Assembly (NCBI GenBank): GCA_026391315.1
Contig: JAPLDT010000088.1
Coordinates: 6,222-70,221, forward strand
DNA length: 64,000 bases
Direction: 5' to 3'
From: Bacteroidia bacterium
Lineage (GTDB): Bacteria > Bacteroidota > Bacteroidia > Bacteroidales > Prolixibacteraceae
This document shows, one piece after another, positions 31,486-62,444 of the stretch. The notes below the pieces were generated by a model. It made no database searches, had not been told where the DNA came from, and saw only the letters and a list, made by a program, of their open reading frames with translations. Position numbers and translations under genes: made by a program. Each line of letters begins with the position of its first letter. Position 1 is the first letter of the stretch.

Positions 31486-31503
31486 TTAACTTCTGATAAA
31501 AGA

Positions 31504-32147: not shown

Positions 32148-32156
32148 GATGTTAAT

Positions 32157-32538: not shown

Positions 32539-32638
32539 TCGTAAATATTATTAGTAAATTATTAAATTTCAGTAAGTACTCATGGAACTCGCAAATGCAC
32601 TTATATCGCTTTTTGTGACATTAGTCTTTGCTCGTTTC
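32534..32638 (-). repeat. 105-nt duplicated leader, copy b
   Basis: By eye it is about 80 percent identical to 31969-32073. It ends exactly at the start codon of the DUF2283 gene. Confidence 0.85.
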
Positions 32639-32893
32639 ATACTTTTCTATTTTTGATGTTTTATAAGCTGTAACAACCAAGGGTGGGTTTTTTGAGTTAT
32701 TAACAAATATTCTGTAAAGATATGGTTTGTCGATTTCAATGACAATTTTTTGATAGATATCAATATTTCCCGATTTTATTATTTTCTTCTCTTTTGATTG
32801 TAGAATTTCCTCTATTATTTGTTTTGAAAGGGATCGGGCCTCAATCTGATCAATTACATGATTTGAAAACTGAAATATCTGTTTTAATGACAT
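32621..32893 (-). CDS. DUF4258-family protein (BECR/RelE-like toxin candidate)
   Basis: 90 aa. It shows FSNHVIDQIEARSLSKQIIEEIL...LVVTAYK, the pattern of DUF4258 proteins that commonly pair with DUF2283. Confidence 0.55.
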   Translation of the reverse strand: MSLKQIFQFSNHVIDQIEARSLSKQIIEEILQSKEKKIIKSGNIDIYQKIVIEIDKPYLYRIFVNNSKNPPLVVTAYKTSKIEKYETSKD

Positions 32894-33162
32894 AGATTAA
32901 ATCATTCAATTAATATGAAACGAAGTTTGATGAAAATAATTACTTGAATGAATTAATAAAGATTTGTGAAGCCTTATTTTCTCAGATTAATCTTAGTTGA
33001 AAATTGGAGAGGATTGAATCTGAATCTTATTATATTATTTTTGAACAATCGCTCTTTCCGTCCGAAAATAGGTTACCCGCTTTTTATAAAATGCTACCGC
33101 GGACCGTGCATCTTTCATATTCCCAACCCTATATTTTTTGTTTGGTGATATTATCATAAATG

Positions 33163-33187
33163 CGTTCGTGTAATTCGTGAAATTCGT
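33163..33187 (+). repeat. ACGAAT-triplet motif, inverted orientation
   Basis: CGTTCGTGTAATTCGTGAAATTCGT is the reverse complement of the motif seen elsewhere. It is preceded by TATATTTTTTGTTTGGTGATATTATCATAAA, which is shared with 36375-36405. Confidence 0.85.
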
Positions 33188-33364
33188 TCTTCATTAGAGT
33201 TGTTTGGAAATCAACAACAAAGAGAAAAGGGTCATTGTAGCAGAGGTGGAATTGAGTTTATTCAAAAAATTAGCCCAAATTAAAACCACAGAACTTGAGC
33301 AAAAGATTATCTTTCGACCACCCCTAATTACAAATCCGCGCCAGTGGTATTTTTTTGTATTTTA

Positions 33365-36552: not shown

Positions 36553-36621
36553 CCCTTCGGCTACGCTCAGGGACCGGTGCCTTTTTAAACTCTTCACCCT
36601 TCGGCTACGCTCAGGGACCGG
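36553..36621 (+). repeat. Two copies of the 25-nt repeat CCCTTCGGCTACGCTCAGGGACCGG, 44 nt apart
   Basis: The copies lie at 36553-36577 and 36597-36621 and are exact over the core. CCTAGTCATCC words follow. Confidence 0.9.
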
Positions 36622-36761
36622 TACTCGTCCTAGTCATCCTAGTCATCCAAGTCGTCCTAGTCCTTGCACAGCTTCGCCTCCTCAGTCCCATTTCTTTGCA
36701 AAAGGACTGCTATTTGCTTCTTAATAAATGTAGCCGGCAAAACCAGTGCGGTTAAGTCGGC

Positions 36762-39199: not shown

Positions 39200-39340
39200 T
39201 TTGTGCTGCCTCTCGCAGGCGGTTCAACTTTCCACATCTCTACCCCGGGGTGCCGCTCCTTCGTCGCTCTGCCCCGGGCTACAAATATGCCGCCACTACG
39301 TGGCTGGATTAGTAAGCGTGCTATATTGTGGTTTGGAACC
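39200..39340. repeat. Partial, diverged copy of the composite repeat core
   Basis: CCCCGGGGTGCCGCTCCTTCGTCGCTCTGCCCCGGGCTACAA is shared with 42822-42862. The hairpin GCCAC-TAC-GTGGC at 39292-39304 replaces CCGC-TAC-GCGG. Confidence 0.75.
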
Positions 39341-39444
39341 GGCCTTATATTCTTGCCCATCGACCCTTCGTCCTATCTTCCCTTCATTCTTCCATCCGTC
39401 CCTCAGTCATTTTAGTCATTTTCCGTCCTACCCGTTTCATTTTC

Positions 39445-41478: not shown

Positions 41479-42591
41479 TCAATTTCTAAAATCAAGAATA
41501 GTCTCACAAATGTAACTCAACTCTTCCTCCGTCATTTCAGTATGAATAGGAAGGGCGAGAACTGATTCACAGAGCTTTTCTGTTACCTGCAGAGAAAATC
41601 CGACAGGGACATATTTGCTAAATGCCTGTTGTTTGTAGAGTGGTAAGGGGTAGTAGATCATGGTTGGAATCCCCTTTTCTGCAAGGTATTCTTTTAGACG
41701 ATCCCTTATTCCATCCTTTATTTTCAGTGTAAACTGGTTGCAGGTGGTTGGTGTGGCAGGCAAATAGGAGGGCAATATTGCGTATTCGAAATTTTTCAGT
41801 GCCTTTTGGTAGAAGGCCCCTACGGCCTTGCGCGCCTCCAGGTAAGTATCAAGGTGAGGGAGTTTGACATTCAAGATAGCAGCCTGCAAAGTATCGAGGC
41901 GCGAGTTGCAGCCTACAACTTCATGGTAATATTTTTTCTTCTGACCATGGTTGGCGATCATCCGGATCTTTTCGGCTAGCGCCGGAAGGTTGGTCATTAT
42001 AGCGCCACCGTCGCCCATGCATCCAAGATTTTTGGTGGGGAAGAAGGAGGTACAGCCAATGTGGCCGATGGTGCCGGCCTTCTTGATCGTCCCGTCCAAA
42101 AAGCGACAGGTGGCTCCAAGCGACTGGGCATTGTCTTCAATGACAAAAAGTTGATGGGCTTCGGCCAGTTTCATTAACGGCTCCATGTCGGCACATTGAC
42201 CGAAGAGATGCACGGGGATAATGGCTCTGGTGCGTGAGGTTATTGCATTGATAATCCCCGATAGGGATATGTTGAAAGTATTTTCATCGACATCCACCAT
42301 CACCGGTTGCAGGCCCAGAAGCGCTATCACTTCCGCGGTAGCGACATAAGTAAAGGCAGGGAGGATTACCTCATCGCCTGGTTTAAGTTCGAGCGCCATC
42401 AGGGCAATTTGCAAGGCATCTGTTCCGTTGGCGCATGCGATTACATAATCTGCCTGCAAAAATTCCGCCAGTTTCTTTTCGAAAATGGCAACCTCTTCCC
42501 CTTTGATAAAGGCGGATGAGTTTATTACCCGCTGAATAGCGGAAAGGATAGGCTGTTCCAACTTTTTGTGCTGGGAGAGCAGATCGACCAT
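41479..42591 (-). CDS. UDP-2-acetamido-2-deoxy-3-oxo-D-glucuronate aminotransferase, WbpE/WlbC-like (DegT family)
   Basis: I start it at the internal Met (MVDLLSQHKKLEQPI). The 22 upstream codons in the ORF track (MRKTEPVPERSRRANILL) are a translation of the 25-nt repeat at 42618-42642. It also shows CANGTDALQIALMALELKPGDEVILPAFTYVATAEV. Confidence 0.85.
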   Translation of the reverse strand: MVDLLSQHKKLEQPILSAIQRVINSSAFIKGEEVAIFEKKLAEFLQADYVIACANGTDALQIALMALELKPGDEVILPAFTYVATAEVIALLGLQPVMVDVDENTFNISLSGIINAITSRTRAIIPVHLFGQCADMEPLMKLAEAHQLFVIEDNAQSLGATCRFLDGTIKKAGTIGHIGCTSFFPTKNLGCMGDGGAIMTNLPALAEKIRMIANHGQKKKYYHEVVGCNSRLDTLQAAILNVKLPHLDTYLEARKAVGAFYQKALKNFEYAILPSYLPATPTTCNQFTLKIKDGIRDRLKEYLAEKGIPTMIYYPLPLYKQQAFSKYVPVGFSLQVTEKLCESVLALPIHTEMTEEELSYICETILDFRN

Positions 42592-42702
42592 GTCAATTTT
42601 TTTGAGCAAGATGTTTGCCCTTCGGCTACGCTCAGGGACCGGTTCTGTTTTTCTCATTTTGTTGTTACCCTCTCACCTTCAATTATTAGCGCGTTCCGTC
42701 CG

Positions 42703-42990
42703 CCCTTCGGCTACGCTCAGGGACCGGTCTCATCTTCTTGTCATTCGTTCTGTCCGTCCGAATTAATCCTATTGATTTTCTCGGCATGCTACCGCGGACG
42801 GCTTTCTTCGCATCATTCCAACCCGGGGTGCCGCTCCTTCGTCGCTTTGCCCCGGGCTACAATACTATAACCGCTACGCGGTAGGATTCGAGAAGGATCC
42901 ACATTGTGGTCAGGAAATTTAGATTGTGCAAAAGCCAATTTTCACATTTTCACATTTTCACATTTTCCAATTTTCACATTATTTTCACCC
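42703..42990. repeat. Composite dispersed repeat of about 290 nt, copy 1
   Basis: By eye it aligns with 59628-59930 at roughly 80-85 percent. The order is the 25-nt repeat, GGTCTCATC, GTCCGTCCGAA, CTACCGCGGACGG, a GC hairpin, CCGCTACGCGG, GGATCCAnATTGTGGTCAGGAAATTTAG, then a TTTCACAT word array. Confidence 0.85.
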
Positions 42991-42995: not shown

Positions 42996-43123
42996 CCCTT
43001 CGGCTTCGCTCAGGGACCACCCCGCTCAGGGACTGGTCTCATTTTCTCATATTCCCCCTCGGCTACGCTCGGGGACCGGTGACTTGTCCCAGTCATCCCC
43101 CTTCGGCTACGCTCAGGGACCGG
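42996..43123 (+). repeat. Cluster of three 25-nt repeats plus a partial duplicate
   Basis: Copies lie at 42996-43018 (with a partial repeat at 43021-43036), 43055-43079 and 43098-43123. Spacing is irregular. Confidence 0.85.
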
Positions 43124-43322
43124 CACTATTTCTTCGTCCCAGTCATCCTAGTCGTCCCACGGCTTCGCCTCCTCAGTCACATTTAGCAACCAAGCGGGCC
43201 CAACAAAATTTCCAATAAGGCGTTAAGTAAGGCAGCCGAATGCAAATATACATGACTTGAAACTGAATTCGGTAGGATAATAACGCTGGTACTGTAAGAA
43301 CAAAACCATAAACAATGACCCC

Positions 43323-44794: not shown

Positions 44795-44871
44795 GGTAAG
44801 TGGATAAGTTGGTTTATAGGCGAAGATAGGAAGAATTTTGGAATGTTACGTTTTCTGGGGAATGAAACATT

Positions 44872-44951
44872 AAACGGGAAGAGGGAAACGGGAAGAGGGA
44901 AGAGGGAAACGGGAAGAGGGAAACGGGAAGAGGGAAGAGGGAAGAGGGAAT
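44872..44951 (+). repeat. Polypurine GGGAAGA/GGGAAAC tandem word array (about 13 GGG tracts)
   Basis: The sequence AAACGGGAAGAGGGAAACGGGAAGAGGGAAGAGGGAAACGGG... is read directly. It fits the G3-N4-G3 quadruplex motif many times over. Confidence 0.9.
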
Positions 44952-45049
44952 GGAGAGATAAATGTTGTTGGCAAATTTGGAATTATGGTAAAATATCGGT
45001 ATATTTAGGTAAGAGTTTAGGTTGTCAATTATTTTTAATTCTTTCAATT

Positions 45050-45427
45050 ATGAAAAATATAATATTGGTGCACACTGATTTAATTGTCTTTCAAAACGCA
45101 TTTAATTCGGCCGTTCAAATACATCAGTTTTCGCAAAACTTCCCATCTGAAGAAAAATTCTCCTTAACTGACCAAATTAGAAGAAGTTCACGATCAGTAG
45201 CTGCAAATCTTGCTGAGGCATTTAGAAAGAGAAGATACCCTAAGTCTTTTATTTCTAAATTGACAGATAGTGAAGGAGAGGCCGCAGAAACACAGGTATG
45301 GCTAAAGTTCGCAAATACCTTTAATTATCTTAACAGTGAGGATTATAATAAAATTAACTCAGCTTACGATCGCATTATTGCACAAATTGTTACGATGGTT
45401 CTCAATCCTGATAAGTGGACATTTTAA
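45050..45427 (+). CDS. Four-helix-bundle protein (TIGR02436 / 23S rRNA intervening-sequence protein family, Avd-like)
   Basis: 125 aa from the ATG at 45050. It shows FQNAFNSAVQIHQFSQNFPSEEKFSLTDQIRRSSRSVAANLAEAFRKRRYPKSFISKLTDSEGEAAETQVWL. The upstream part of track ORF 44555-45427 is antisense rmlA plus repeat sequence. Confidence 0.8.
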   Translation: MKNIILVHTDLIVFQNAFNSAVQIHQFSQNFPSEEKFSLTDQIRRSSRSVAANLAEAFRKRRYPKSFISKLTDSEGEAAETQVWLKFANTFNYLNSEDYNKINSAYDRIIAQIVTMVLNPDKWTF

Positions 45428-45466
45428 CTCCCACACCTCGCGTTTCCCGTTTCCCTCTTCGCTTCC

Positions 45467-45991
45467 TCATTCTTTCACCACAGCCAGATTGGTTGAGGGC
45501 GATTCTACCAGCACCGTAAAACCCAGCGGCAGAATGCGAAGGGCAACCCTGTTGTTGCCGCGAAAGGAGATGAGTTCACCACGGATGCCCATCATCGGAC
45601 CGGCAATGATTTCGACCTGCATGCCAGGAAGCAGCTCCTCCCTGGTAATTTCGACCTCTACCTCACTCTGTCCGAGCATCCGTTTGAGGATTTCAATGTC
45701 ATGGTCACGGATCACCGCTGCCTTTCCTTCGAAACGGACATACTGCATCACATTGTCGATTTGCAGTACGACATCGTAGTGTTTCCTGGTGATGTGAACA
45801 AATACATACCCGGAAATAAGCGGTATTTCTACCCATTTTTTACGGTCGCTCCACTGACGAAGCTTTCGTTGAAGAGGCAGGAAGGATTCGATTCCCTTAA
45901 ATTTTAACTCTTCATGTACCTTTTTCTCTGCACGTGAGTGGACATAGACAGCATGCCATTGTTCGATAAGGGGTTTTTCTTTTGGGGACAT
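45467..45991 (-). CDS. UpxY-family (NusG-like) transcription antiterminator
   Basis: 174 aa. It has an NGN domain (WHAVYVHSRAEKKVHEEL...ESFLPL) and a KOW-like region (GMQVEIIAGPMMGIRGELISF). It is the first gene of the locus, as in Bacteroides capsule operons. Confidence 0.8.
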   Translation of the reverse strand: MSPKEKPLIEQWHAVYVHSRAEKKVHEELKFKGIESFLPLQRKLRQWSDRKKWVEIPLISGYVFVHITRKHYDVVLQIDNVMQYVRFEGKAAVIRDHDIEILKRMLGQSEVEVEITREELLPGMQVEIIAGPMMGIRGELISFRGNNRVALRILPLGFTVLVESPSTNLAVVKE

Positions 45992-46056
45992 ATTCGGTAG
46001 ATTATAGATTCATACATCATTGAAAAAGAAGGGGAGACTGGGCGAATGAAAGAAAT

Positions 46057-46357
46057 GTTTGAAATGTTTAAAAAGTTTGAAAAGTTACCGGTCCCTGAGC
46101 GAAGTCGAAGGGAAATGTTTGAAATGTTTAGGAAGTTTAAAAAGTTGCTGGTCCCTGAGCCTGTCGAAGGGGCGAAGTAATTGGATAAAATAGTCACCGG
46201 TCCCTGAGCTTGTCGAAGGGGTTTTTCTGTATGGACCTTATGGTAAATAAATTTCACAACAAAGATCACAAGAGTTGACACGAAGGACACAAGGACTTCA
46301 ATTTTTCGGTTAAACTCCGGCACCGTTAACATTTCAAACTTTTTAAACATTTCAAAC
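46057..46357. promoter_or_regulatory. 30-bp inverted repeat pair (29/30 match) bracketing a 241-bp segment upstream of upxY; candidate invertible element
   Basis: The left arm at 46057-46086 is GTTTGAAATGTTTAAAAAGTTTGAAAAGTT. The right arm at 46328-46357 is AACATTTCAAACTTTTTAAACATTTCAAAC. The interior holds three reversed 25-nt repeats (46088-46112, 46148-46172, 46197-46221) and a second left-arm-like copy at 46117-46146. Confidence 0.5.
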
Positions 46358-46438
46358 AATTTAAACCAATAAGAAGTTGCGCAATTCTAAAAGTATAGGA
46401 TATGCAGGCAAAAGCATTCTCCCCTTCTCCCCCTCTTT

Positions 46439-48874
46439 TTACTTTGGGAAGCCCGATGGCGGTGCAGCCGCAGCGTCCGCGCCCCAGCTTTTGTTGGGCA
46501 ACTCGCCCATCTGCAGCTCAAGCAGCGCCCCATTCATCAGTTCCTCATGAGTAAACCACGGTTTGTTAAGCGGTTGACCATTCAGTTTGGCGCTTTGGAT
46601 GTACTTGTTTTTGACAGAACATCCGGTTGCTTTGATGGTAAAAGTCTTACCATTCCCGAGGGATATTTTTACCTCCTCGAAAAGCGGAGAGCCAATGTTG
46701 TAGTTGGGCAATCCAGGGGTAACCGGATAAAAGCCCATCGAGGAGAAGACCACAAATGCGGTCATACCACCGCCGTCCTCGTCACCGGGTATGCCGAAAA
46801 TGTTGTCCTTGAACCAGACATCCAGCAGAAAACGAATCCGCTTCTGGGTTTTCCAGGGTTCACCCGAATAGTTGTAGAGGTAGGGGATGAAGAAACTTGG
46901 TTCGTTGCCCATCGAATATTGCCCTACCATGCCGGTGGCATCGGCGAATTTGGCCCAGAAAGCGAATTTACTCCGGCCAAGCGGCTCGCGGAAAAGCTGA
47001 TCGATGGTGGCTGTGAATCCTTCGCGTCCACCCATCAACCCAATGAGGCCGTGGAGATCGTGTTGTGCCTGCCATGCATAGGTATAGCCGTTGTTTTCGT
47101 CGTAATAATCGCGTCCGCCAGGACCGCCATCGAATTTTGGATCAATGTCGATCCAGTTTCCGGCAGAATCTTTCGGCCACATTAGCTTCTTATCAGGACG
47201 ATAGAGGTTGCGGTAGTTGAGCGATTGTTTACGGTAGTAGACCGCATCATTAGGCTTGTTCAGCTCTCCTGCCATTTCAGATAAGGCCCAGTCGTCGAAA
47301 CTATGAGCGAGGGTGATGGCAACACTCTCGCGACGTTCAAAATCGTGCACAAGCTTGACCGTCTCAGTCTGTCCTGGCCACAAAGCAGGGTAAAAGCCTT
47401 TTTCGCGGTAGAATGTGTCGAGGATGCATTTCGGACCATTTCGCCAGGGAAGCATGGTGGCTGAGGTGGCATTCTTCAGCATCCCTTCGTAAGCTTTAGG
47501 GACATCAAAATTGCGGATCCCTTTTCGGTAACCATCCAGCAGTGCTACGGTGGAGTGAAAACCATTCATGGCAGGATCATCTTTGAATAGCAGCGGAAAT
47601 TGCGGCAGCCATCCCCCCTGTTCATACATGGTGACATACGATTGCAGCATGTCTCCCTCCATTTCGGGATGAAGAATGGAACGGAGTGGGTGCATGGCGA
47701 GATAAGTGTCCCAAATCCAGTCGTCCACGTAAAAATCGCGGGTGGTGGGGTGTACTTTGTGGTCGTAAGCGCTGTAGTATTGACCATGCTCGTTGATGTT
47801 GATCATCCTTTCGTACTGCCTGTACAGAGAGGTGTAGAAGGTGCGGCGCTGGGCTTCCGTACCTCCTTTTACCTTAATCTGGTCCATCACGGTAGTCCAT
47901 TTTTGCTCGGCATTTTTTCTGGTTCCGTCAAAATCCCATGCCGGAATCTCTGCTGCCAGATTGGCTTTGGCCTGTTGGATGCTGATAAAGGAGATGGCGT
48001 ATTTCATCACCACTTCCGAAGGGGTATTGGCTCCAAAGCGAATCCATGCACCCGGTTTGACGGATGATTCTCCTTTTTTAGGATCGGAAACCTGAAGGCT
48101 CAGCTTTCCGGCTTGACCGGCCTGGTTCACTTCACCGTACACATAAGCTTTCATCCCCATAAACTCTTCCGTTCCAGAAAAAGACATTCCCGATCTCCCA
48201 GTCTCCCAGTCCCCCAGTCCCTTAGTCTTTCCGTCTTTACTTCTTTCGGTCGCCCCTTCGCCCCCTCGTCCCTTCACCCCCTCGTTTTCCATCTCCCAAC
48301 TTCCCTGGTTGACAACGCGTAGCGCCAAAAACTTCTCTCCCTTACCAGGAAAGCTAAACCTGAAAATACCGCATTTGGCGCCGGGAGTGAACTCAGTTTT
48401 GATGTTGTTGTCAATGAAGTAGGTGGAATAGTAAAACGGACGAGTAATCTCCAGATCGTGGTCATAGGTTTGCCGTTTTCCCCAGGTTTCAGCTTTTGGC
48501 TCCCCCAGATAAGGCATGACTCCAAACAATTCCCCTTTGCGGTGGGAGGAGATGGTTAACGGAAAAAAACTGATCTGATCATCTAAATAATCTGCACGGA
48601 CAGGATAAAAACGTACCATTTGGTTAGGCAGATGCACTGTTGGACGCGTAGGCTGAAGGAGGATACCGACATTGCCAATGGTGGGGTCGACAGTTTCAAG
48701 ATTGGTGCGGGTTTGGGCGGTTGCGGAAAATGCGGATATTAGAAAGATAAGGGAAATGACGGAGAGACGGAGGGACGGAGGGACTAGGGGACTTGGAGAC
48801 TGGGAGACTGGGAGACTGGGAGAATTGACACTCGTACCTCTTCGAAACGGGATTGAAAATAGTTTGCTTTTCAT
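46439..48874 (-). CDS. GH92-family glycoside hydrolase (alpha-mannosidase-like), secreted
   Basis: I start it at Met-12 of the track ORF (MKSKLF...). It has GH92 hallmarks: YDHDLEITRPFYYSTYF, GMVGQYSMGNEPSFFIPYLY and GIPGDEDGGGMTAFVVFSSMGFYPVTPG. It carries two in-frame repeat-derived inserts (see findings). Confidence 0.85.
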   Translation of the reverse strand: MKSKLFSIPFRRGTSVNSPSLPVSQSPSPLVPPSLRLSVISLIFLISAFSATAQTRTNLETVDPTIGNVGILLQPTRPTVHLPNQMVRFYPVRADYLDDQISFFPLTISSHRKGELFGVMPYLGEPKAETWGKRQTYDHDLEITRPFYYSTYFIDNNIKTEFTPGAKCGIFRFSFPGKGEKFLALRVVNQGSWEMENEGVKGRGGEGATERSKDGKTKGLGDWETGRSGMSFSGTEEFMGMKAYVYGEVNQAGQAGKLSLQVSDPKKGESSVKPGAWIRFGANTPSEVVMKYAISFISIQQAKANLAAEIPAWDFDGTRKNAEQKWTTVMDQIKVKGGTEAQRRTFYTSLYRQYERMININEHGQYYSAYDHKVHPTTRDFYVDDWIWDTYLAMHPLRSILHPEMEGDMLQSYVTMYEQGGWLPQFPLLFKDDPAMNGFHSTVALLDGYRKGIRNFDVPKAYEGMLKNATSATMLPWRNGPKCILDTFYREKGFYPALWPGQTETVKLVHDFERRESVAITLAHSFDDWALSEMAGELNKPNDAVYYRKQSLNYRNLYRPDKKLMWPKDSAGNWIDIDPKFDGGPGGRDYYDENNGYTYAWQAQHDLHGLIGLMGGREGFTATIDQLFREPLGRSKFAFWAKFADATGMVGQYSMGNEPSFFIPYLYNYSGEPWKTQKRIRFLLDVWFKDNIFGIPGDEDGGGMTAFVVFSSMGFYPVTPGLPNYNIGSPLFEEVKISLGNGKTFTIKATGCSVKNKYIQSAKLNGQPLNKPWFTHEELMNGALLELQMGELPNKSWGADAAAAPPSGFPK
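48187..48290 (-). repeat. Repeat-word segment translated in frame inside GH92 (internal)
   Basis: The plus strand reads TCTCCCAGTCTCCCAGTCCCCCAGTCCC...CGCCCCTTCGCCCCCTCGTCCCTTCACCCCCTCG. It encodes ENEGVKGRGGEGATERSKDGKTKGLGDWETGRSG. The boundaries are approximate. Confidence 0.7.
48761..48832 (-). repeat. Repeat-word segment translated in frame in the GH92 signal-peptide n-region
   Basis: The plus strand reads GGAGAGACGGAGGGACGGAGGGACTAGGGGACTTGGAGACTGGGAGACTGGGAGACTGGGAGA. It encodes SPSLPVSQSPSPLVPPSLRLS. It is inverted relative to 48197-48222. Confidence 0.75.
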
Positions 48875-48936
48875 TGTAGTAGTTATAGTATGATTCAAAT
48901 AGTTCAATTTAAATTACTTTGAGACCTTAGTGAAAT

Positions 48937-48983
48937 CCTTTGTGGCCTTAGTGTTGAAATTTTTACCACTAAGACCACAAAGG
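48937..48983. repeat. Strong hairpin (17-bp stem with 1 mismatch, 13-nt loop) in the GH92/DUF1080 divergent spacer
   Basis: CCTTTGTGGCCTTAGTG ... CACTAAGACCACAAAGG. It is built from CACAAAGG/CCTTAGTG words that recur nearby. Confidence 0.8.
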
Positions 48984-49144
48984 AATGCACAAAGGAACAC
49001 AAAGTTGATCCGCAAATGATGGTTGCAAATGTAACTTGATTTGGGTAGAAAATCAATTCGAAAAAGATACCGTTTGCGATAACGGAATGGAAAAAGATGT
49101 TTATTTTAGCAAAAACATTTACCAACTATATTAGACCAATACAA

Positions 49145-50512: not shown

Positions 50513-50537
50513 TGAATAAGTTTGAAATGTTTTTTTA

Positions 50538-50558
50538 GTTTGAAATGTTTGAAGGGTT
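50538..50558. repeat. Left arm of the perfect 21-bp inverted repeat bracketing the second four-helix-bundle gene
   Basis: GTTTGAAATGTTTGAAGGGTT. Its exact reverse complement occurs at 51018-51038 and again at 51036-51056. Confidence 0.9.
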
Positions 50559-50615
50559 ACGGCCTCTTTGTAATTTGTTTAAAGGGTTTGAAATGTTTAT
50601 AATGTTTGAAATGTT

Positions 50616-51008
50616 ATGACTATTAAATGCTTTGAAGATTTAGAGATTTGGCAGGAAGCACGAGAATTGTGTAAACTGGTGAGACAAGTCACATTTAGGG
50701 AACCATTTGTAAATGAGTTCAGATTCAGGGATCAAATGAACGCATCGGCTGGATCGATAATGGATAACATTGCAGAAGGATTTGACAGAGGAGGAAACAA
50801 GGAATTCATACAATTTCTGAGTATCAGTAAAGGATCTTGCGATGAAACCCGCTCTCAATGTTACCGGGCTTTTGATGCCGGGTATATACAGGAAACAGAA
50901 CTCAATGATCTTTTGGGACGAACCCAACGATTAAAATTAAAAATTGGCAATTTTATGGAATACCTTAAACATAGTCCCCTAACCGGAACCAAATACAAGA
51001 AAGATTGA
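50616..51008 (+). CDS. Four-helix-bundle protein (TIGR02436 / 23S rRNA intervening-sequence protein family, Avd-like)
   Basis: 130 aa. It shows FEDLEIWQEARELCKLV...FRDQMNASAGSIMDNIAEGFDRGGNKEFIQFLSISKGSCDETRSQ. Confidence 0.85.
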   Translation: MTIKCFEDLEIWQEARELCKLVRQVTFREPFVNEFRFRDQMNASAGSIMDNIAEGFDRGGNKEFIQFLSISKGSCDETRSQCYRAFDAGYIQETELNDLLGRTQRLKLKIGNFMEYLKHSPLTGTKYKKD

Positions 51009-51017
51009 AATATTTCA

Positions 51018-51056
51018 AACCCTTCAAACATTTCAAACCCTTCAAACATTTCAAAC
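51018..51056. repeat. Right arm (two overlapping registers) of the 21-bp inverted repeat
   Basis: AACCCTTCAAACATTTCAAAC occurs at 51018-51038 and at 51036-51056. Confidence 0.9.
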
Positions 51057-51076
51057 AATTAAAACTACTATTTATC

Positions 51077-56822: not shown

Positions 56823-59549
56823 TTATTTGATGTTTTCAATCAGACTGTGAAACGCCTTCCTCTCCACCTCCCCGCCTTCGGAGTAATGGGTTACATTTTC
56901 GCGTTTTGCAATACGGCAGAAATTGTCGTAGGTGCCATCCTGACGGGCAATGGCTGGTGTGCGTTTGCATTTGAGATAGAGAACTGGCAAGGAGCACATT
57001 TCAACACGGCGAACCACTTCGTCATTGTCGGCTACTTTAACCGCCTCTTTGAAAATATCGCACGACTGTTGCACGAAATCATCGGAGAAGATGGCATCGC
57101 CCGGTGTCAGTCCCAGATGTATATGGGTATCCGGTGTGATACGGTTGTGCAGCAGATCGAAATATTGCCTGACGAACTTTCCGGCCCGACCATAATAACC
57201 GTACATGAAATCGTTGATAACTGCCTCAGTATTGCACTCCGGATTCCACAATAATTTGGAAATCAGGTAGGAACGAAGCTCGGAAAACTCACCCCCACGG
57301 CTTTGGTAAGCAGCCTGCTCCATGATGCCAATGGCGTTGTTGTCCCTGAACGACTGTATGTTGGATTGCAGTACCCTGAAGTTGGGGTAAGGCATCACAT
57401 AATGCAAGAAATTAACCACATAATCCCAGATGTACATGTGGGGCGCAATGGCCGACCATCCCTTCAGATCATTGAGGAAGGATTTGTTTTCGGGACAGGA
57501 TTTGAAATCGTGTGCGAAACAGCATTCGATGCTGCACAACCGCACCACCACATTGTTCCTGGGCTTGATGTCTTTTGGCGGTGTTCTGGTATAAGTGTAG
57601 GCCAGTGTGCCGATAAATTTGTCAGGGAACTCCTTCTCCACCGCTTCGGCCACCTGATTTACAAACCAGATGATCAGTCCGGATTCGCTCCCTTTGGCCT
57701 TGACTATGGCCTGGCATTTGTCGCATTGGCACGGGTTGTTCCAGTCGTTTTGGGAGACATCGTAAATCAGGTATTCAGGACTTTCGCGCATCCGTTTTCT
57801 GATACGGTCTGTGATAATTCGCAGTACATCCGGGTTTGTGAGGCAAAGCTGTGCCTGCTCATGGATCCGTTTGCCATCGATTAAACTGTAATATTCGGGA
57901 TGTTTTTTGTAAAATTCTTCCGGTGGCATCAGCGGGTAAAAGGTATGAACCGCCCAGTAGCTATCGATGCCGCCGGGTTGTTCGCGGTAGCCCATGGCTC
58001 CGTTCATCTTGTTGCGGGTGGCCCAGATCGGATCAAAAGCCTCAAAATAGAAATCATTCCGTACCCGGACGCCCGGTTTTTCGGCATGGTCGAACCAGAC
58101 AAATTTCAGCTCCTCCCTTTTGGGGATCACATTCACGGTAGGGGTGTACCAACGGCAGCCCAGCTCTCTTTCCAGGAATTCGAAGACACCATACATGGTG
58201 CCACGCTTCTGGCCTCCGGTGATGAAAATGTTAGGACCGGAGTTGTAGTAGTGGAAGGATTCTTCGGCTGAAGCGGTGGTCTCCGCTGAGCCTGTCGAAG
58301 CGTGAAACCTTACAAGTGGGGATAAGTCGGTCCCTGAGCTTGTCGAAGGGTTTTGGGAGCTCTTCGAATCTGACTGAAAAGTGATTGATGACGCTTCGAC
58401 AGGCTCAGCGACCGGATCTTTCTTCTTCATTGTCAATTTGTTCACTTCGACAGGCTCAGTGAACAAATTGACTGCATCAGTACCAACTACAATTTTCGGT
58501 CCTTTATAATTCGGGTCTTCAGGGAGTTGCGGCAATTCCACCCCACTGATCTCCTTCAACCAGTGCTGAAGCTCTTTGGCAGCCCATTTTTCTGATTCTG
58601 AGGCATTGTTGGCAATGGCGATCCGGTAATCAGATTTTCCATGACTGAAAAGTGCATATTCGATTCGCTTTCCTGCCGTGAATTCGCTTGTTCGTTGCAG
58701 TATCTTTCCCGATTTCAGCTGAACAGTAACCTTTGCCTGGTATGGTTGGTAATTGGCTGACGGAATTTTAAGCGGAGTACAAAAGTTGGCAGTACGATCC
58801 ACCTTCAGGATCTCGGTGCCGTGAATGTCGCTGATGGTTACAGTTACTTTTTGAATCAGGTAGTTCAAAACATCCGGAAGGTAGGAGGAGAGGACGCTTG
58901 CAGTTCCGGATTCGTCAGCCCGGACTTTGAAAAGATCACCTCTATTGAGGGCTTCTGCAGCGGAAAAATTGTGAAATCTCAGGGCGAATCCCCATTTGTT
59001 TCCATGCTGTTCGACTTTTAACAGGAGGGTGTTGGTTCCTTTTTTTAGCATAACGGGGATCAGATCTCCATCAATTATGACACTGCGCTTGGTCGGATAA
59101 TCGAAAACTGAAGTACCGTTTACGAAGAGTTGTGCCCCGTCGTTGGTGCCCAGGCCAATCAGGTGAACACCCTCTTCTGCTGCCTCGACACTGGTAAAGG
59201 CATAGGCAAAAACGGGATAAGATTTGGAGAAGGCTGCGACCAGGTCGACGATCGAATCGGTCGACTGCCAATATTTCCAGACCATCGACTTTTTGCCGAT
59301 TTTGATTGCATCGCCGGCTTTTACCGATAGGTTTTGCTCTCCGCCCAATTTGCCGAGGTAATCTGTCTTGAATCCGGGAAGGTGATCCCACGATTTTTCG
59401 GGATCCGGCTGAGTTTGCAGCGGGATCGGACCGAGCAGCAGCCAGGATTTTAGGAATTGGCCGGGGATGATTTTCTGCGGAACATTTTGACAAAATCCCG
59501 GCAGGGAAATAAGTAGGAATAAAGAAATAGAAAGAAATAGTTGTTTCAT
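56823..59549 (-). CDS. DUF4838-domain putative glycoside hydrolase with N-terminal carbohydrate-binding-like region; carries an in-frame repeat insertion
   Basis: 908 aa. It has a signal peptide (MKQLFLSISLFLLISLPGFC). AAKELQHWLKEISGVELP and RGTMYGVFEFLERELGCRWYTP are typical of DUF4838 proteins. Confidence 0.65.
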   Translation of the reverse strand: MKQLFLSISLFLLISLPGFCQNVPQKIIPGQFLKSWLLLGPIPLQTQPDPEKSWDHLPGFKTDYLGKLGGEQNLSVKAGDAIKIGKKSMVWKYWQSTDSIVDLVAAFSKSYPVFAYAFTSVEAAEEGVHLIGLGTNDGAQLFVNGTSVFDYPTKRSVIIDGDLIPVMLKKGTNTLLLKVEQHGNKWGFALRFHNFSAAEALNRGDLFKVRADESGTASVLSSYLPDVLNYLIQKVTVTISDIHGTEILKVDRTANFCTPLKIPSANYQPYQAKVTVQLKSGKILQRTSEFTAGKRIEYALFSHGKSDYRIAIANNASESEKWAAKELQHWLKEISGVELPQLPEDPNYKGPKIVVGTDAVNLFTEPVEVNKLTMKKKDPVAEPVEASSITFQSDSKSSQNPSTSSGTDLSPLVRFHASTGSAETTASAEESFHYYNSGPNIFITGGQKRGTMYGVFEFLERELGCRWYTPTVNVIPKREELKFVWFDHAEKPGVRVRNDFYFEAFDPIWATRNKMNGAMGYREQPGGIDSYWAVHTFYPLMPPEEFYKKHPEYYSLIDGKRIHEQAQLCLTNPDVLRIITDRIRKRMRESPEYLIYDVSQNDWNNPCQCDKCQAIVKAKGSESGLIIWFVNQVAEAVEKEFPDKFIGTLAYTYTRTPPKDIKPRNNVVVRLCSIECCFAHDFKSCPENKSFLNDLKGWSAIAPHMYIWDYVVNFLHYVMPYPNFRVLQSNIQSFRDNNAIGIMEQAAYQSRGGEFSELRSYLISKLLWNPECNTEAVINDFMYGYYGRAGKFVRQYFDLLHNRITPDTHIHLGLTPGDAIFSDDFVQQSCDIFKEAVKVADNDEVVRRVEMCSLPVLYLKCKRTPAIARQDGTYDNFCRIAKRENVTHYSEGGEVERKAFHSLIENIK
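58270..58472 (-). repeat. Nested palindromic repeat block of about 200 nt translated in frame inside the DUF4838 gene
   Basis: Four CTGAGC-NNN-TCGAAG units are present, two in each orientation. There is a perfect 19-bp inverted repeat (58284-58302 / 58392-58410) and a 14-bp-stem palindrome at 58432-58472. Confidence 0.8.
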
Positions 59550-59627
59550 AGTATTTTGGATTTTCGATTTTGGATTGGCGTTAATTGAAATATTGTGGTT
59601 TAAAATTTTGCATTGAGTTAAATAGTG

Positions 59628-59930
59628 CCCTTCGGCTACACTCAGGGACCGGTCTCATCCATACATTTTCCCATTCTTTGCTTCTTTCAAAATTGTTACT
59701 GTTCCGTCCGAAATTAACTTACCATCTTTTTTTGGCATACTACCGCGGACGGCTCTTTATCATCATTCCCAACCTGGGGTGTCGCTCCTTCGTCGCTTTA
59801 CCTCGGACTACAATACTATAACCGCTACGCGGTAAGATTCGAAAAGGATCCATATTGTGGTCAGGAAATTTAGGATTGTGCAAAAGCCAATTTTCACATT
59901 TTCACATTTTCACATTTCCAAATTATTTTC
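59628..59930. repeat. Composite dispersed repeat of about 300 nt, copy 2
   Basis: See 42703-42990. It has the same orientation relative to the flanking minus-strand genes. Confidence 0.85.
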
Positions 59931-60017
59931 ACGCTTCTGCCTGTCTCTCTATCGTCCCAGTCATCCCAGTCATCCCAGTCGTCCAAGTCGTCCCTCGTCT
60001 CCCTGTCCCTCCGTCTC

Positions 60018-62444
60018 TCAGTCATTCTTAAGCAGCCACACCTCCGCCACCTGCGAACCCCTTTCTCCTTCTCCTTTGTCGTTTTGGGCGCAGCTCCAGG
60101 TGAAGGTTACTTTGCCGGATTGAGTCACCTCTTTCGGAAGTTGAAACTCAAAGATAGGCTGTGTTCCCATTCTGATAAAGTCGTGGATCAGGATGCCGTT
60201 GGCTTCGAGTTTCATCTTCGAGCGGAAACGTCCGGTGTAGGCTACGCGCAGTGTATATTTTCCTGCAGGGTCAAGATCGGTATATTCCATCACCAGTGGG
60301 GTGAAATAGAGGGTGTTGATCTGGTTCATCCAGGCCAGCGGAGTGGTTTGCCCTTCGAAGCCTTTGGCCACAATTTCGTCTACCCATTCAACACCTTTGA
60401 GTCCGACGCCGAAGCTGACGCGGGGCGATTCGAGGCTTCCGGGATCCTCCTGCCATCTTTTCTGTGATTTCACATGTTTCCACGAAGCCGGATTTCCAAG
60501 GTTATCGTAAAATCCGCCGGGGCCGGGATCGGTGCGGTGCAGCATCTTGCCAATATCGGCCAGTCGTTCCTTTTCATCGGTTCGTTTTTCGACCCGGTTG
60601 AGCTGGTCCAGCAGCCAGAGTGCGTCGTTGAGCGGGATGTCGATGTTGTCGATAAAGTTACCACGACCGCTCATGGCATGGTGTTTTTTGATGGTGAGCT
60701 GGGCACCGAAGCTTCGGAAAAGAGAATCCGCCAGGGCAAAGCAACGGCTTCTCAGCGGTTGTGCTATGGGCTCCTCTTTGGCCTGAAGCAGCGTGTGCCG
60801 GGCATCCTGGATGGCTTTGAGTGTTTCGGATGGTTTGGTTACTTCAAGAATGGACCGGGCCTGTTGTTCCAGATCAGTTTCATAGATCAGACGCCGCCGG
60901 ATGTAGGCATCAAAGTAGGCCCTGATAAGTCCGCTCTGGAACCTTGGATTTGAAAGCACCTCCGTGGAAGCTGAACGCTCCATGTCCTGCCATTGTTGTA
61001 GGGTTCTCTCGACTTGTTCGTTGGCCAGGAGCGGCCCGCGAAAATTCTGTTCGAGTGCCATCAACCCTTGAGCAACGGCATCTGCATATTGAGGTCCGAT
61101 GAAATAGCGAGCATAATCCCGGAGCGTTTCGATGGCAGGGGTTTCAGGATTCCAGTCCTGGCCGGTCCAGATAAATTTGTTCACGTCGTCGTTGGTGCCC
61201 TCCGAGTAGCTGATGCTTCCCTGTGCCAAAGAGGCATAACGGTTGTGGATCAACTTCTCATCGATCGGACGTGGGTTGATGCATTCGCGACCAAGTGTCA
61301 TGGCAAATGCCAGGTCCCATTGCTGAACCGGATACTGACAGCTGTAGCTGTGGGTGATATCGGGATAGAGACGGATCGGAATGGAGGGGTCAGTCACTTT
61401 GCGAACCTCAGGCAGTGGCATTTTGATCCACGGACCATAAACGACACCTCCCAGCCATTCCGGTTTCTTGTTGATATGGGCAAAAAAGTTTCCATACCAG
61501 ACGGTACTAGGCTTGAATGCCTGGGGGGATACCCAGATTTTGGCATTTGGGTGATATTTTTTCAATACCACAGCCTCCTGGCTTAACCAGTTAAAAAGCG
61601 GATCCGGTTCAAGATCGCCGGGATCGCCTCCGGGTACGAAAAGGGCATCGAGTTTGGGAAGGATGCTGAATATTTTTTCGCGTTCGGCAAGTTCGGCCTT
61701 GATTGAATCGGGGGAGTTGTAGTCGCTGTTCATGTTCGGATACCACATCCAGACATCCAGACCGTAGGATTTGCAGATTTTGGCCTGTTCGACAATCATT
61801 TGGATGGCGGGCAATTTCATGTGCACACTGGTGGCATCGTCATCGGTACGGGGAGGCATGATCTCGATGCTGTTGGCGCCGAAAAGAGCGAGATCGCGAA
61901 TGTAGCGGTCGTATTGGGCGACGGTCCAGGCATCGTAGGCATTGGTTTTTGGACGATAACCCAGCTGGTGGCCTCGGATGGGATAGGTGGGGGTTGAAGA
62001 GAGTGCGAGACGATCAGGTAAAAGTATTTTGTTCGCAGAGAGCTCCATCTTACGAAGGAGATATCCTGCTCCGAAAAGTGCACCTCGCTCATCATGGCCT
62101 GCGATAACCACCGTATTGGCATCCGGTATGACTATTTTGTACCCATCTTTCCCGGTAGGTGGCAGGGAATTCAGTACGGTTGTAATCCCGGTAGGAAGTT
62201 TAATTGCATCTTTTTCGAGACAAATGATAATTTGCGGCAGATCTTTGGAGTCCAGCTTTCCGGCGATAGCCGATTTAATATTGGTATGAAGCAGAAGCTC
62301 TTCCTGCAAAACAGTGGTAGCCTTGAAGAGCAGGAGGTTCTTTTTGTCAGAACAAAAGATGGATGTTTTGGAAAAATCGAGCCATTGCGCGGAAGTCACC
62401 AGCGGCAGGAGCCCCAATGCAAAAATGTAGAGCAAGCGGATCAT
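60018..62444 (-). CDS. Secreted putative glycoside hydrolase (GH20/GH67-like N-terminal domain plus TIM barrel); family uncertain
   Basis: 808 aa. It has a signal peptide (MIRLLYIFALGLLPLVTSAQ). GHDERGALFGAGYLLRKM followed by IRGHQLGYRPKTNAYDAW resembles the N-domain/catalytic junction of hexosaminidase/glucuronidase-like enzymes. Confidence 0.4.
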   Translation of the reverse strand: MIRLLYIFALGLLPLVTSAQWLDFSKTSIFCSDKKNLLLFKATTVLQEELLLHTNIKSAIAGKLDSKDLPQIIICLEKDAIKLPTGITTVLNSLPPTGKDGYKIVIPDANTVVIAGHDERGALFGAGYLLRKMELSANKILLPDRLALSSTPTYPIRGHQLGYRPKTNAYDAWTVAQYDRYIRDLALFGANSIEIMPPRTDDDATSVHMKLPAIQMIVEQAKICKSYGLDVWMWYPNMNSDYNSPDSIKAELAEREKIFSILPKLDALFVPGGDPGDLEPDPLFNWLSQEAVVLKKYHPNAKIWVSPQAFKPSTVWYGNFFAHINKKPEWLGGVVYGPWIKMPLPEVRKVTDPSIPIRLYPDITHSYSCQYPVQQWDLAFAMTLGRECINPRPIDEKLIHNRYASLAQGSISYSEGTNDDVNKFIWTGQDWNPETPAIETLRDYARYFIGPQYADAVAQGLMALEQNFRGPLLANEQVERTLQQWQDMERSASTEVLSNPRFQSGLIRAYFDAYIRRRLIYETDLEQQARSILEVTKPSETLKAIQDARHTLLQAKEEPIAQPLRSRCFALADSLFRSFGAQLTIKKHHAMSGRGNFIDNIDIPLNDALWLLDQLNRVEKRTDEKERLADIGKMLHRTDPGPGGFYDNLGNPASWKHVKSQKRWQEDPGSLESPRVSFGVGLKGVEWVDEIVAKGFEGQTTPLAWMNQINTLYFTPLVMEYTDLDPAGKYTLRVAYTGRFRSKMKLEANGILIHDFIRMGTQPIFEFQLPKEVTQSGKVTFTWSCAQNDKGEGERGSQVAEVWLLKND

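What the first reader, a model, noticed from the sequence alone, without database searches (positions are those of the whole stretch)
48187..48290. Intergenic repeat words inserted in frame inside the GH92 catalytic protein
Seen:
- About 100 nt of CCCAGTC-type and CCCTCG-type words are read through without a stop in the GH92 frame. The plus strand reads TCTCCCAGTCTCCCAGTCCCCCAGTCCC...CGCCCCTTCGCCCCCTCGTCCC.
- This adds a Gly/Glu/Lys-rich stretch of about 34 aa (ENEGVKGRGGEGATERSKDGKTKGLGDWETGRSG) between SWEM and MSFSGTEEF in the N-terminal beta-sandwich region.
- The same word family forms spacer arrays at 36625-36660, 43085-43160 and 59945-60010.

Established: Rickettsia palindromic elements are a precedent for repeats that insert in frame into protein genes and are tolerated.

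Inference: the repeat family here can invade ORFs and is retained when it lands in a loop in a stop-free frame.
Basis: partly seen in the sequence, partly recalled or inferred. Interest (0 to 1): 0.65.

Follow-up and report, generated by a model that had tools for sequence, protein, structure and literature searches.

The report
In-frame repeat arrays inside a mannosidase gene
A mannosidase (GH92) gene carries two in-frame copies, in opposite orientations about 500 bases apart, of a short-word repeat that normally sits between genes; the enzyme seems to tolerate both, and whether the pairing has a function is not known.

Summary
Window 48188-48289 (minus-strand gene 46439-48874) is about 100 nt of 8-nt words. 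It is read in frame as 34 residues (E196-G229), a net 31 more than in orthologues that lack it.

Orthologues at 62-69% identity have no insert. In one clade of Prolixibacteraceae relatives the same site holds inserts of 10-76 extra residues with different words.

A good AlphaFold model puts the insert in a low-confidence coil at a beta-hairpin tip of the N-terminal sandwich, not in the catalytic domain.

It is the inverted complement of the insert (64 nt, 80%, 506 nt apart). This inverted repeat recurs in 11 of 14 insert-bearing orthologues.

Both arms belong to a dispersed family. The 5' arm is 89% identical to an intergenic copy at 59946-60030.

The best reading is tolerated selfish or mutational repeat DNA, reshaped by slippage and copy-to-copy conversion. 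There is no evidence for inversion or for selection on mRNA pairing.

Word-array inverted repeats also bracket all six 23S-rRNA-IVS-protein genes seen and the upxY leader. A functional reading therefore stays open.

The parts
46439..48874 (-). GH92 alpha-mannosidase gene, 811 aa from ATG 48874. The ORF lister extends it to TTG 48907.
   Evidence: Pfam PF17678 (residues 62-295, 1.4e-25) and PF07971 (residues 301-791, 1.3e-153). PDB GH92 hits down to 3e-98. AlphaFold model pLDDT 82.8; Foldseek TM 0.86-0.88 to 2wvy, 2wvx and 7zgm.
48188..48289 (-). Internal in-frame array (the finding): residues E196-G229. The sense strand is G/A-rich (GACTGGGA, GACGGAAA and GAGGGGGC words). It forms the downstream arm of the inverted repeat; the matching part is 48188-48251.
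   Evidence: Absent in orthologues at 62-69% identity, and 10-76 extra residues in the insert clade. Coil with pLDDT 43-57 between strands 190-195 and 227-238. No stop in the frame used only.
48758..48823 (-). 5' in-frame array: residues about 18-39 (SPSLPVSQSPSPLVPPSLRLSV), the n-region of the signal peptide. The sense strand is C/T-rich (TCCCAGTC then CCTCCGTC words). It forms the upstream arm of the inverted repeat.
   Evidence: The only in-frame start is ATG 48874, upstream of the array, and the other frames carry stops. It is 66/74 identical to the intergenic array at 59946-60030. Residues 1-32 have pLDDT below 50, followed by helix 34-52, which is the h-region.
48252..48757 (-). 506-nt spacer between the arms. 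This is native GH92 coding sequence: the signal-peptide h-region and the first 140 or so residues of the mature N-terminal domain.
   Evidence: Homologous residue for residue to insert-less orthologues. Spacer length is 446-580 nt in orthologues. In-silico inversion gives a 95-aa truncated product.
48925..48995 (.). Word-array hairpin (CCTTAGTG / CACAAAGG words) in the divergent promoter region just upstream of the GH92 gene.
   Evidence: DNA fold -21.2 kcal/mol, z = -8.4. Present in L001, L002 and L003.
59946..60030 (+). Intergenic copy of the same composite 'word-gradient' element (9-nt period). It abuts the stop of the minus-strand gene 60018-62444.
   Evidence: 89% identical (66/74) to the GH92 5' arm, with the same order of word variants.
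36621..36705 (+). Intergenic copy of the family (TCCTAGTCA words plus a shared 3' extension).
   Evidence: (family D12).
43126..43200 (+). Intergenic copy of the family, next to 25-nt CCCTTCGGCTACGCTCAGGGACCGG units.

Best explanation
The insert is one of two copies of a dispersed, fast-evolving 'word-array' repeat that became fixed inside the GH92 gene of one Prolixibacteraceae lineage. Both copies sit at positions that tolerate extra residues.

The 5' copy is translated as a Pro/Ser-rich extension of the signal-peptide n-region. It would be removed with the signal peptide (inferred). The internal copy lies in inverted orientation about 500 nt downstream. It is translated as a disordered Gly/Glu/Lys/Arg loop at the tip of a beta-hairpin in the N-terminal sandwich.

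The arrays change by slipped-strand gain and loss of 7-9-nt words. Only changes that keep the frame open survive. They also change by gene conversion or template switching with other copies, including the partner arm, so both arms tend to carry the words current in their genome (inferred).

The inverted repeat is therefore most likely a by-product of two copies in opposite orientation, not a device. Its consequences (a long-range mRNA stem, a substrate for recombination, assembly breaks) would be side effects.

Shown: the anatomy, the derived state, the single clade, hypervariability, family membership, loop location and an intact gene. Inferred: the mutational mechanisms and the lack of function.
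For: - Derived and clade-limited. There is no insert in the 62-69% orthologues or in L006, L007, L009 and L087. Insert-bearing genes form one clade in a neighbour-joining tree.
- Hypervariable length (10-76 extra residues) and word content at one fixed site.
- Family membership. The 5' arm is 89% identical to the intergenic copy at 59946-60030, which is better than the 80% to its partner arm. Words are shared with other intergenic arrays of the same genome, for example CCGTTTC words in L083 in both the GH92 arms and the GH92-upxY spacer.
- Permissive sites. The insert is a coil with pLDDT 43-57 between two strands. The 5' array lies before the h-region helix.
- Frame filter. Only the frame used is stop-free, in both arrays.
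- The gene is functional-looking. It has the full GH92 fold. Nucleotide identity in the spacer is 0.76-0.91, while four-fold sites are only 0.39-0.69 identical.
- No sign of RNA-level selection. Arm mismatches comprise 35 that are wobble-compatible in the mRNA, 44 that are wobble-compatible only in the antisense, and 44 others.
- Pairing is dispensable. L085 and L119 keep an insert but have no matching 5' arm.
- Rarity. Of 83 arrays in about 265 kb of clade DNA, only those of this gene lie deep inside a long ORF. All 102 database proteins that match (DWETGRLG)n are domain-less ORFs of 32-90 aa.
Against: - The insert has persisted through divergence that has nearly saturated synonymous sites. 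Under the deletion bias usual in bacteria, this is unexpected for useless DNA.
- The inverted-repeat relation is kept in 11 of 14 insert-bearing genes. L044 has 128 nt at 88% identity, including 60 identical bases. L004 has replaced both arms with CCGTTTC words. That needs ongoing homogenisation or selection.
- Window and L003 inserts are 88% identical with no indel, and third codon positions are 33/40 identical, against 62% at four-fold sites of the flanks. This is a weak hint of DNA-level constraint.
- Word-array inverted repeats are used systematically elsewhere in these genomes, around all six PF05635 genes seen and around the upxY leader in every orthologue. That suggests the inverted-repeat form itself may matter.
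Confidence: 0.55

Rival explanations
1. The two arms form a functional RNA element. In the GH92 mRNA the C-rich 5' arm pairs with the G-rich internal arm. The resulting 60-130-bp stem encloses about 500 nt. It would be cut by RNase III or would block elongation when the message is poorly translated. This would be the same logic as the stems that flank 23S rRNA intervening sequences and, in these genomes, PF05635 genes.
For: Both the minimum-free-energy and centroid folds of the first 751 nt contain the long-range stem (z = -2.2, 0 of 20 shuffles as stable). The inverted repeat recurs in 11 of 14 orthologues with lineage-specific words. Inverted repeats of word arrays bracket all six PF05635 genes seen and the GH92-upxY spacer.
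Against: Mismatches between the arms show no excess of G-U-compatible changes in the sense RNA (35 sense, 44 antisense, 44 other). Two lineages keep the insert without a partner. Own-partner complementarity is the best available in only 5 of 11 genomes, because the words are shared across the clade. Ribosomes would unwind a stem that lies inside a coding region.
Confidence: 0.17
2. The arms are the inverted repeats of an intragenic invertible segment. Recombination between them flips 48252-48757 and switches the gene off, leaving a 95-aa truncated product. This would be a phase-variable GH92 next to a capsule-type locus.
For: An inverted repeat within one gene, with inversion predicted to give a premature stop, is the class described for Bacteroides intragenic invertons (PMC10028968). 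In-silico inversion gives a 95-aa product. L044 has 60 identical bases in the arms, enough for homologous recombination. Two contigs (L011, L090) end exactly in the insert. The neighbouring upxY leader has an inverton-like architecture.
Against: All of the roughly 25 orthologous contigs that span the region have the same orientation, and no N-terminal segment was found on the opposite strand. No recombinase domain was found among about 50 window proteins scanned. The arm sequences are not conserved between lineages, unlike recognition sites of site-specific invertases. No flipped spacer was seen among orthologues of the upxY leader. Contig breaks are expected at any repeat.
Confidence: 0.1
3. 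The internal array arose in place by slippage of native G-rich turn codons. It resembles the intergenic family only because similar short words are favoured by the genome's mutational bias. No copy was ever inserted.
For: Insert-less relatives encode the turn with word-like sequence: L009 GGGATCGGGTA, L007 GGTACCGGAAA, L006 GGAGTCGGAAA. The last word of the window insert is GAGATCGGGA.
Against: The insert shows the same ordered succession of word types as its partner arm and as the intergenic copy at 59946-60030. In L044 it contains a 17-nt unit (GGCTCCGCTCGGGGACC) related to a 25-nt dispersed element. Colinear composite structure is not expected from local slippage alone.
Confidence: 0.12
4. 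The gene is a pseudogene, or the insert is an assembly artefact.
For: L119 has a truncated reading frame (353 residues after the VDP anchor). Repeats can cause misassembly.
Against: The window ORF is full length with all GH92 invariant columns. Inserts at the same site occur in at least 14 independent assemblies, always in frame. Conservation is strong relative to four-fold sites.
Confidence: 0.03

Closest known systems
Rickettsia palindromic elements (RPEs): selfish repeats inserted in frame in protein-coding genes (Ogata et al. 2000, as reviewed in PMC10969869)
   Same: A dispersed repeat family is read through in frame inside an otherwise conserved, apparently functional gene, at a position compatible with the fold.
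   Different: RPEs are discrete palindromic elements of about 150 bp with a conserved encoded peptide, and they hit dozens of genes. Here the unit is an array of 7-9-nt words. It is not self-complementary, has no conserved peptide and is hypervariable. One gene was hit in about 265 kb. The complementary half lies 500 nt away in the same gene.
Cyanobacterial STRR sequences (short tandemly repeated repetitive heptamers such as CCCCAGT)
   Same: These are tandem arrays of short C/G-skewed words in intergenic regions that can form hairpins, with unknown function (PMC2670836). They are also reported inside a functional gene, the RNase P RNA gene (title of Vioque 1997, cited in PMC2858038). The octamer behind (DWETGRLG)n also occurs in Crocosphaera, Calothrix and Moorena ORFs.
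   Different: A different phylum (Bacteroidota). Periods are 8-9 nt rather than 7. Here the arrays lie in a protein-coding gene and are translated. That STRR1 is CCCCAGT is my recollection and was not checked in a paper.
Intragenic invertons of Bacteroides (PMC10028968)
   Same: An inverted-repeat pair inside one gene. Predicted inversion gives a premature stop.
   Different: No inverted allele was seen and no invertase was found nearby. The arms are long (64-130 nt), imperfect, made of tandem words, and differ between lineages.
23S rRNA intervening sequences carrying PF05635 four-helix-bundle genes
   Same: In these genomes all six PF05635 genes seen are enclosed by long complementary flanks, as an intervening sequence is enclosed by its stem. 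The same kind of word arrays forms the GH92 arms.
   Different: The cassettes lie between protein-coding genes, not in rRNA. The GH92 bracket encloses native coding sequence, not a PF05635 gene. RNase III processing was not tested.

Membership tests
Glycoside hydrolase family 92 (host gene) | N-terminal GH92N beta-sandwich plus C-terminal GH92 catalytic domain | tested here: met
   PF17678 at 1.4e-25 and PF07971 at 1.3e-153. Foldseek TM 0.86-0.88 to BT2199, BT3990 and 7zgm.
RPE-like in-frame selfish repeat | The element belongs to a repeat family dispersed in the genome | tested here: met
   At least 5 related copies in the window. The 5' arm is 66/74 identical to 59946-60030.
RPE-like in-frame selfish repeat | Inserted in frame in a conserved gene and absent from orthologues | tested here: met
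RPE-like in-frame selfish repeat | The element itself is palindromic (folds on its own) | tested here: not met
   The insert alone folds at -2.3 kcal/mol (z = +0.7). The 5' arm alone folds at 0 kcal/mol.
RPE-like in-frame selfish repeat | Conserved encoded peptide, with many genes affected | tested here: not met
   Insert peptides differ in length and sequence between orthologues. Only this gene was affected among 83 arrays in about 265 kb. No domain-bearing protein was among the 102 (DWETGRLG)n hits.
Intragenic inverton | A pair of inverted repeats within one gene | tested here: met
   Arms 48188-48251 and 48758-48821: 64 nt, 80% complementary, 506 nt apart.
Intragenic inverton | Both orientations present in a population | tested here: inconclusive
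   Only assemblies could be examined. All contigs spanning the site have one orientation. Read-level data are not available.
Intragenic inverton | An invertase acting on conserved recognition repeats | tested here: not met
   No recombinase domain in about 50 window proteins. The enzyme could be encoded elsewhere. Arm sequences differ between lineages.
MITE | Terminal inverted repeats within one short element plus a target-site duplication | tested here: not met
   The insert has no internal inverted repeat. Comparison with the empty site (L009, L007, L006) shows only GGGA-type microhomology and no clear duplication (by eye).
STRR-type tandem word arrays | Tandem arrays of a 7-9-nt word, mostly intergenic, able to form hairpins with an inverted array | tested here: met
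   Described for cyanobacteria in PMC2670836.
Intein or other self-removing insert | Conserved splicing motifs and a structured domain | not tested
   The low-complexity Gly/Glu/Lys sequence has no Pfam hit beyond the two GH92 domains and is a low-confidence coil. No dedicated motif search was done.

The most novel reading that the evidence does not exclude
Inverted repeats built from lineage-specific word arrays may be a functional cis-element system of Prolixibacteraceae. They would act either as stems cut from transcripts, as in rRNA intervening sequences, or as substrates for recombination. The system would be tied to the PF05635 four-helix-bundle (IVS-protein / Avd-like) genes that these arrays always enclose. 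On this reading, the 5' end of the GH92 gene has been captured inside such a bracket, with both arms kept in frame. That would make expression of the enzyme switchable or dependent on translation.
Probability: 0.2. Interest if true: 0.8.

Novelty: new variant of a known kind. Interest (0 to 1): 0.55.

Why it matters
In-frame selfish repeats are known mainly from Rickettsia. This is a clear case in Bacteroidota, with an unusual geometry: both halves of a long inverted repeat lie in frame in the same gene. One half sits in the signal peptide and the other in a beta-hairpin loop. Both have turned over for a long time while the enzyme stayed intact.

The case marks two positions in GH92 that accept 10-76 extra residues. 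It shows that short-word arrays of the STRR type are not confined to cyanobacteria or to intergenic DNA.

It also links these arrays to PF05635 genes. All six PF05635 genes seen are enclosed by array inverted repeats. The roles of both STRR arrays and PF05635 proteins have been unclear for decades. If the brackets are processed or recombined, the link gives a concrete, testable handle on both.

Tried and rejected
- **Rfam and tRNA scans of the window.** No match, so the repeats are not known RNA families.
- **Search for an inverted allele.** No N-terminal GH92 segment lies on the opposite strand in any related genome or metagenome locus.
- **Flipped spacers between orthologues of the GH92-upxY intergenic region.** None found; forward alignments always score as well or better.
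- **RNA-level covariation through wobble bias.** No bias.
- **Own-partner against foreign-partner complementarity.** The own partner is best in only 5 of 11 genomes, because words are shared across the clade. 'Covariation' therefore cannot be claimed strictly.
- **First AlphaFold run with 29 sequences.** Too poor to use (pLDDT 49.6). It was repeated with 119 sequences.
- **Invertase or reverse transcriptase near the locus.** None found in the window.
- **Database search with the peptide that a perfect GACTGGGA array encodes.** It returned only short domain-less ORFs, so there is no evidence that such arrays are commonly captured by real proteins.
- **Literature searches.** No paper on Prolixibacteraceae inverted repeats was found. 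A search for in-frame REP insertions gave nothing relevant.
- **Vioque 1997.** The paper could not be opened.
Full report
**1. The observation**

The region lies in a minus-strand ORF. From ATG 48874 to the stop at 46439 it encodes 811 residues.

The protein is a GH92 alpha-mannosidase. Pfam finds GH92N at residues 62-295 and the catalytic domain at 301-791. Solved GH92 structures match down to 3e-98.

Tandem Repeats Finder reports three adjoining 8-nt arrays at 48194-48285. The CCCAGTC-type double word occurs 9 times in the window against 0.12 expected.

The arrays are read in frame as E196-G229 (ENEGVKGRGGEGATERSKDGKTKGLGDWETGRSG). The other two sense frames contain stops. The insert is in the N-terminal domain, not the catalytic one.

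**2. The insert is derived, old and hypervariable**

Among 4115 homologues, those at 62-69% identity (about 750 aa) go straight from ...HWDLLS to KNSLSGEEQF... with no insert.

DNA of relatives was fetched from genome and metagenome collections. All close relatives are Prolixibacteraceae-type metagenome-assembled genomes.

At exactly this site the closer group carries 0 to 76 extra residues:
- L006, L007, L009 and L087: no insert
- L083: 10 extra residues
- L085 and L119: 13
- L005: 14
- L082: 16
- L002: 21
- L001: 23
- window and L003: 31
- L004: 43
- L044: 76

Further inserts are seen in L161, L162 and L163.

In a neighbour-joining tree with the insert masked (321 ungapped columns), all repeat-type inserts fall in one clade. 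A single origin followed by turnover is the simplest history.

Four-fold degenerate sites between the window and these orthologues are only 0.39-0.69 identical, while the surrounding coding DNA is 0.76-0.91 identical. The gene is therefore under purifying selection, and the insert has survived a long divergence.

**3. Position in the protein**

With a 119-sequence alignment AlphaFold gives pLDDT 82.8 and pTM 0.84. The model superposes on BT2199, BT3990 and 7zgm at TM 0.86-0.88.

Residues 196-226 are coil with pLDDT 43-57, between strands 190-195 and 227-238. A two-residue beta-turn in the insert-less enzymes has become a loop of about 30 residues.

Whether the loop lies far from the active site could not be computed, because coordinates are not exposed.

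**4.

At 48758-48823 the sense strand reads TCTCCCAGTC TCCCAGTC TCCCAGTC TCCAAGTC CCCTAGTC CCTCCGTC CCTCCGTC TCTCCGTC. This encodes residues 18-39 (SPSLPVSQSPSPLVPPSLRLSV).

That stretch lies downstream of the only usable start and upstream of the hydrophobic core, which is helix 34-52 in the model. It is therefore the n-region of the signal peptide. It is open in the frame used, while the other frames have stops.

The repeat finder pairs 48188-48251 with 48758-48821 as an inverted repeat of 64 nt, 80% complementary, 506 nt apart. This is the longest inverted repeat in the whole window.

An RNA fold of the first 751 nt contains this long-range stem in both the minimum-energy and the centroid structures.

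**5. The inverted repeat recurs in orthologues**

In 11 of 14 insert-bearing genes the reverse complement of the insert matches the gene's own 5' array better than any of 200 composition-preserving shuffles. L005 ties, and L085 and L119 fail.

The words differ between lineages:
- window, L001, L002 and L082: CCCAGTC then CTCCGTC
- L003 and L162: GCCCCCTC
- L004 and L083: CCGTTTC in both arms
- L163: CCTCGTC
- L044: a composite of 128 nt at 88% identity, with 60 identical bases and a 17-nt GGCTCCGCTCGGGGACC unit in both arms

The spacer is 446-580 nt in all of them.

**6. How far this is true covariation**

It is not strict covariation.

- The words are shared across the clade, so an insert matches its own 5' arm best in only 5 of 11 genomes.
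- In the window the 5' arm is more similar to an intergenic array 11 kb away than to its partner. It matches 59946-60030 at 66/74 (89%), with the same succession of word variants and the same flanks, but matches its partner at only 51/64.
- Words used in the GH92 arms also occur in other spacers of the same genome.
- Arm mismatches show no excess of changes that would keep G-U pairs in the mRNA: 35 sense, 44 antisense, 44 other.
- L085 and L119 keep an insert with no partner. Instead they carry a local ATTTTCG / CGAAAAT inverted repeat in the n-region.

These results favour DNA-level processes over selection on an mRNA stem. Such processes include copying from a dispersed family, conversion between copies, and slippage.

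**7. Tests of the inversion idea**

Flipping the segment between the arms in silico gives a 95-residue product. That is the 'premature stop' class of intragenic invertons described in Bacteroides (PMC10028968).

However, every contig that spans the region has the same orientation. No recombinase domain was found in about 50 proteins of the window. The arm sequences are not conserved as recognition sites would be.

Two contigs (L011, L090) end inside the insert, but that is expected at any repeat. Read-level data would be needed to settle the question.

**8. Context that keeps a functional reading alive**

The window from 29 kb onward is dense with repeat families.

Inverted repeats made of word arrays enclose all six PF05635 (23S rRNA intervening-sequence protein) genes available, each with different words. 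These genes are window 45050-45427 and 50616-51008, L001 3915-4280 and 10693-11055, and one each in L010 and L090.

The spacer between the GH92 stop and the NusG-like upxY gene that heads the polysaccharide locus is bracketed in nearly every orthologue that retains a sizeable spacer. A G-rich array follows the stop, then comes an AT-rich stretch, and a C-rich array lies 40-60 nt before the upxY start. The words are again lineage-specific.

In L082 and L004 a G-rich array also lies upstream of the GH92 start. The 5' C-rich arm may therefore have begun as the downstream arm of such an ordinary intergenic bracket.

**9. Rarity**

Of 83 arrays detected in about 265 kb of clade DNA, only those in this gene lie well inside a long ORF.

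A database search with the peptide encoded by a perfect GACTGGGA array returned 102 proteins. All are 32-90 residues long without any Pfam domain, which marks them as spurious calls over intergenic arrays. Some come from cyanobacteria. Capture by a real gene therefore looks exceptional.

**10. Comparison with known systems**

- **Rickettsia palindromic elements** share the in-frame, tolerated, selfish character (PMC10969869). Unlike the insert here, they are self-palindromic units with conserved peptides. The insert does not fold on itself.
- **Cyanobacterial STRR heptamer arrays** are the closest known sequence class. They form hairpins in spacers and have no known function (PMC2670836). [quoted passage not shown]
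- **Intragenic invertons and rRNA intervening sequences** resemble the geometry, but their defining features were not met or could not be tested here.

**11. Verdict**

It needs amending: the insert is one arm of an in-frame inverted repeat built from a dispersed word-array family, and it is old and hypervariable.

The most likely explanation is tolerated repeat DNA shaped by slippage and conversion (0.55). Functional RNA-stem (0.17) and inverton (0.10) readings are not excluded.

Noticed in passing
window 44866-45470 and 50520-51065; L001 3884-4357 and 10617-11160; L010 about 4035-4307; L090 about 2874-3224: All six PF05635 (23S rRNA intervening-sequence protein, four-helix-bundle) genes seen are enclosed by inverted repeats made of tandem word arrays. 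Each uses different words (GGGAAGAGG, GTTTGAAAT, GTGGAAAG/GTTGAGAG, TGAAGGGA). The cassettes sit at different positions in related genomes, which suggests mobility or an IVS-like stem.
   Followed up: partly
window 45992-46438 (arms 46053-46099 / 46315-46361); the same spacer in L001, L002, L004, L005, L011, L044, L083, L090, L162, L163: The spacer between the GH92 stop and the NusG-like upxY gene that heads the polysaccharide locus is bracketed by a word-array inverted repeat in nearly every orthologue that retains a sizeable spacer, with lineage-specific words. The architecture resembles invertible capsule promoters of Bacteroides, but no flipped spacer was found between orthologues.
   Followed up: partly
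window 36554, 36598, 37630, 42619, 42704, 42997, 43056, 43100, 46090(-), 59629; L087 spacer after GH92: A 25-nt unit, CCCTTCGGCTACGCTCAGGGACCGG, has 10 copies in the window. In L087 two inverted copies form a near-perfect palindrome (REPIN-like). A variant sits inside both GH92 arms of L044 and is translated there.
   Followed up: partly
window 42690-42940 and 59620-59890 (partial copy 39240-39344): A repeated element of about 250 nt lies upstream of the minus-strand genes 41479-42657 and 56823-59549. It ends in ATTTTCAC arrays and has no Rfam match.
   Followed up: no
window 29000, 30171, 30714, 31549, 36312, 38953, 40338, 53986: Eight copies of an ATTTCACGAATT..ACGAATTACACGAAC motif lie mostly just upstream of gene starts in the polysaccharide locus. 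This may be a promoter or operator module.
   Followed up: no
window about 49065-49085; the equivalent position in L006-L010, L085, L087, L119: A small palindrome, CCGTT(W)YCGCAAACGG, is conserved about 150-200 nt upstream of the GH92 start in all orthologues, including insert-less ones. It lies between the divergent GH92 and 3-keto-disaccharide-hydrolase genes and is a likely operator.
   Followed up: no
L009 about 6040-6140: A CTTTATCC array of about 10 copies is read in frame as the hydrophobic core of the lipoprotein signal peptide (ILYPLSFILHPLSFILYSLSFILLLSC). This orthologue has no internal insert.
   Followed up: no
L085 and L119, 5' end of the GH92 gene: The n-region coding sequence contains its own local inverted repeat of ATTTTCG and CGAAAAT words. 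The internal insert of these two genes has no partner arm.
   Followed up: partly
proteins P0150, P0151, P0168, P0194, P0218: Short ORFs reading GRLGDWETGRLGDWET, the translation of the same GACTGGGA octamer array, occur in Crocosphaera watsonii, Calothrix and Moorena. The octamer array is therefore not confined to Bacteroidota.
   Followed up: partly
L119 (TBL_comb47_HYPODRAFT_10006677): The GH92 reading frame stops 353 residues after the VDP anchor, and the distance to upxY is 1352 nt. This is a possible pseudogene, rearrangement or assembly error.
   Followed up: no
window 1-29000 against 29000-64000: The tightly packed biosynthesis operon in the first 29 kb has almost no word arrays, whereas nearly every spacer after 29 kb carries several. 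The region 31212-33364 is 2.1 kb of repeats with no ORF of 110 aa or more, next to a HEPN gene (30771-31211).
   Followed up: no
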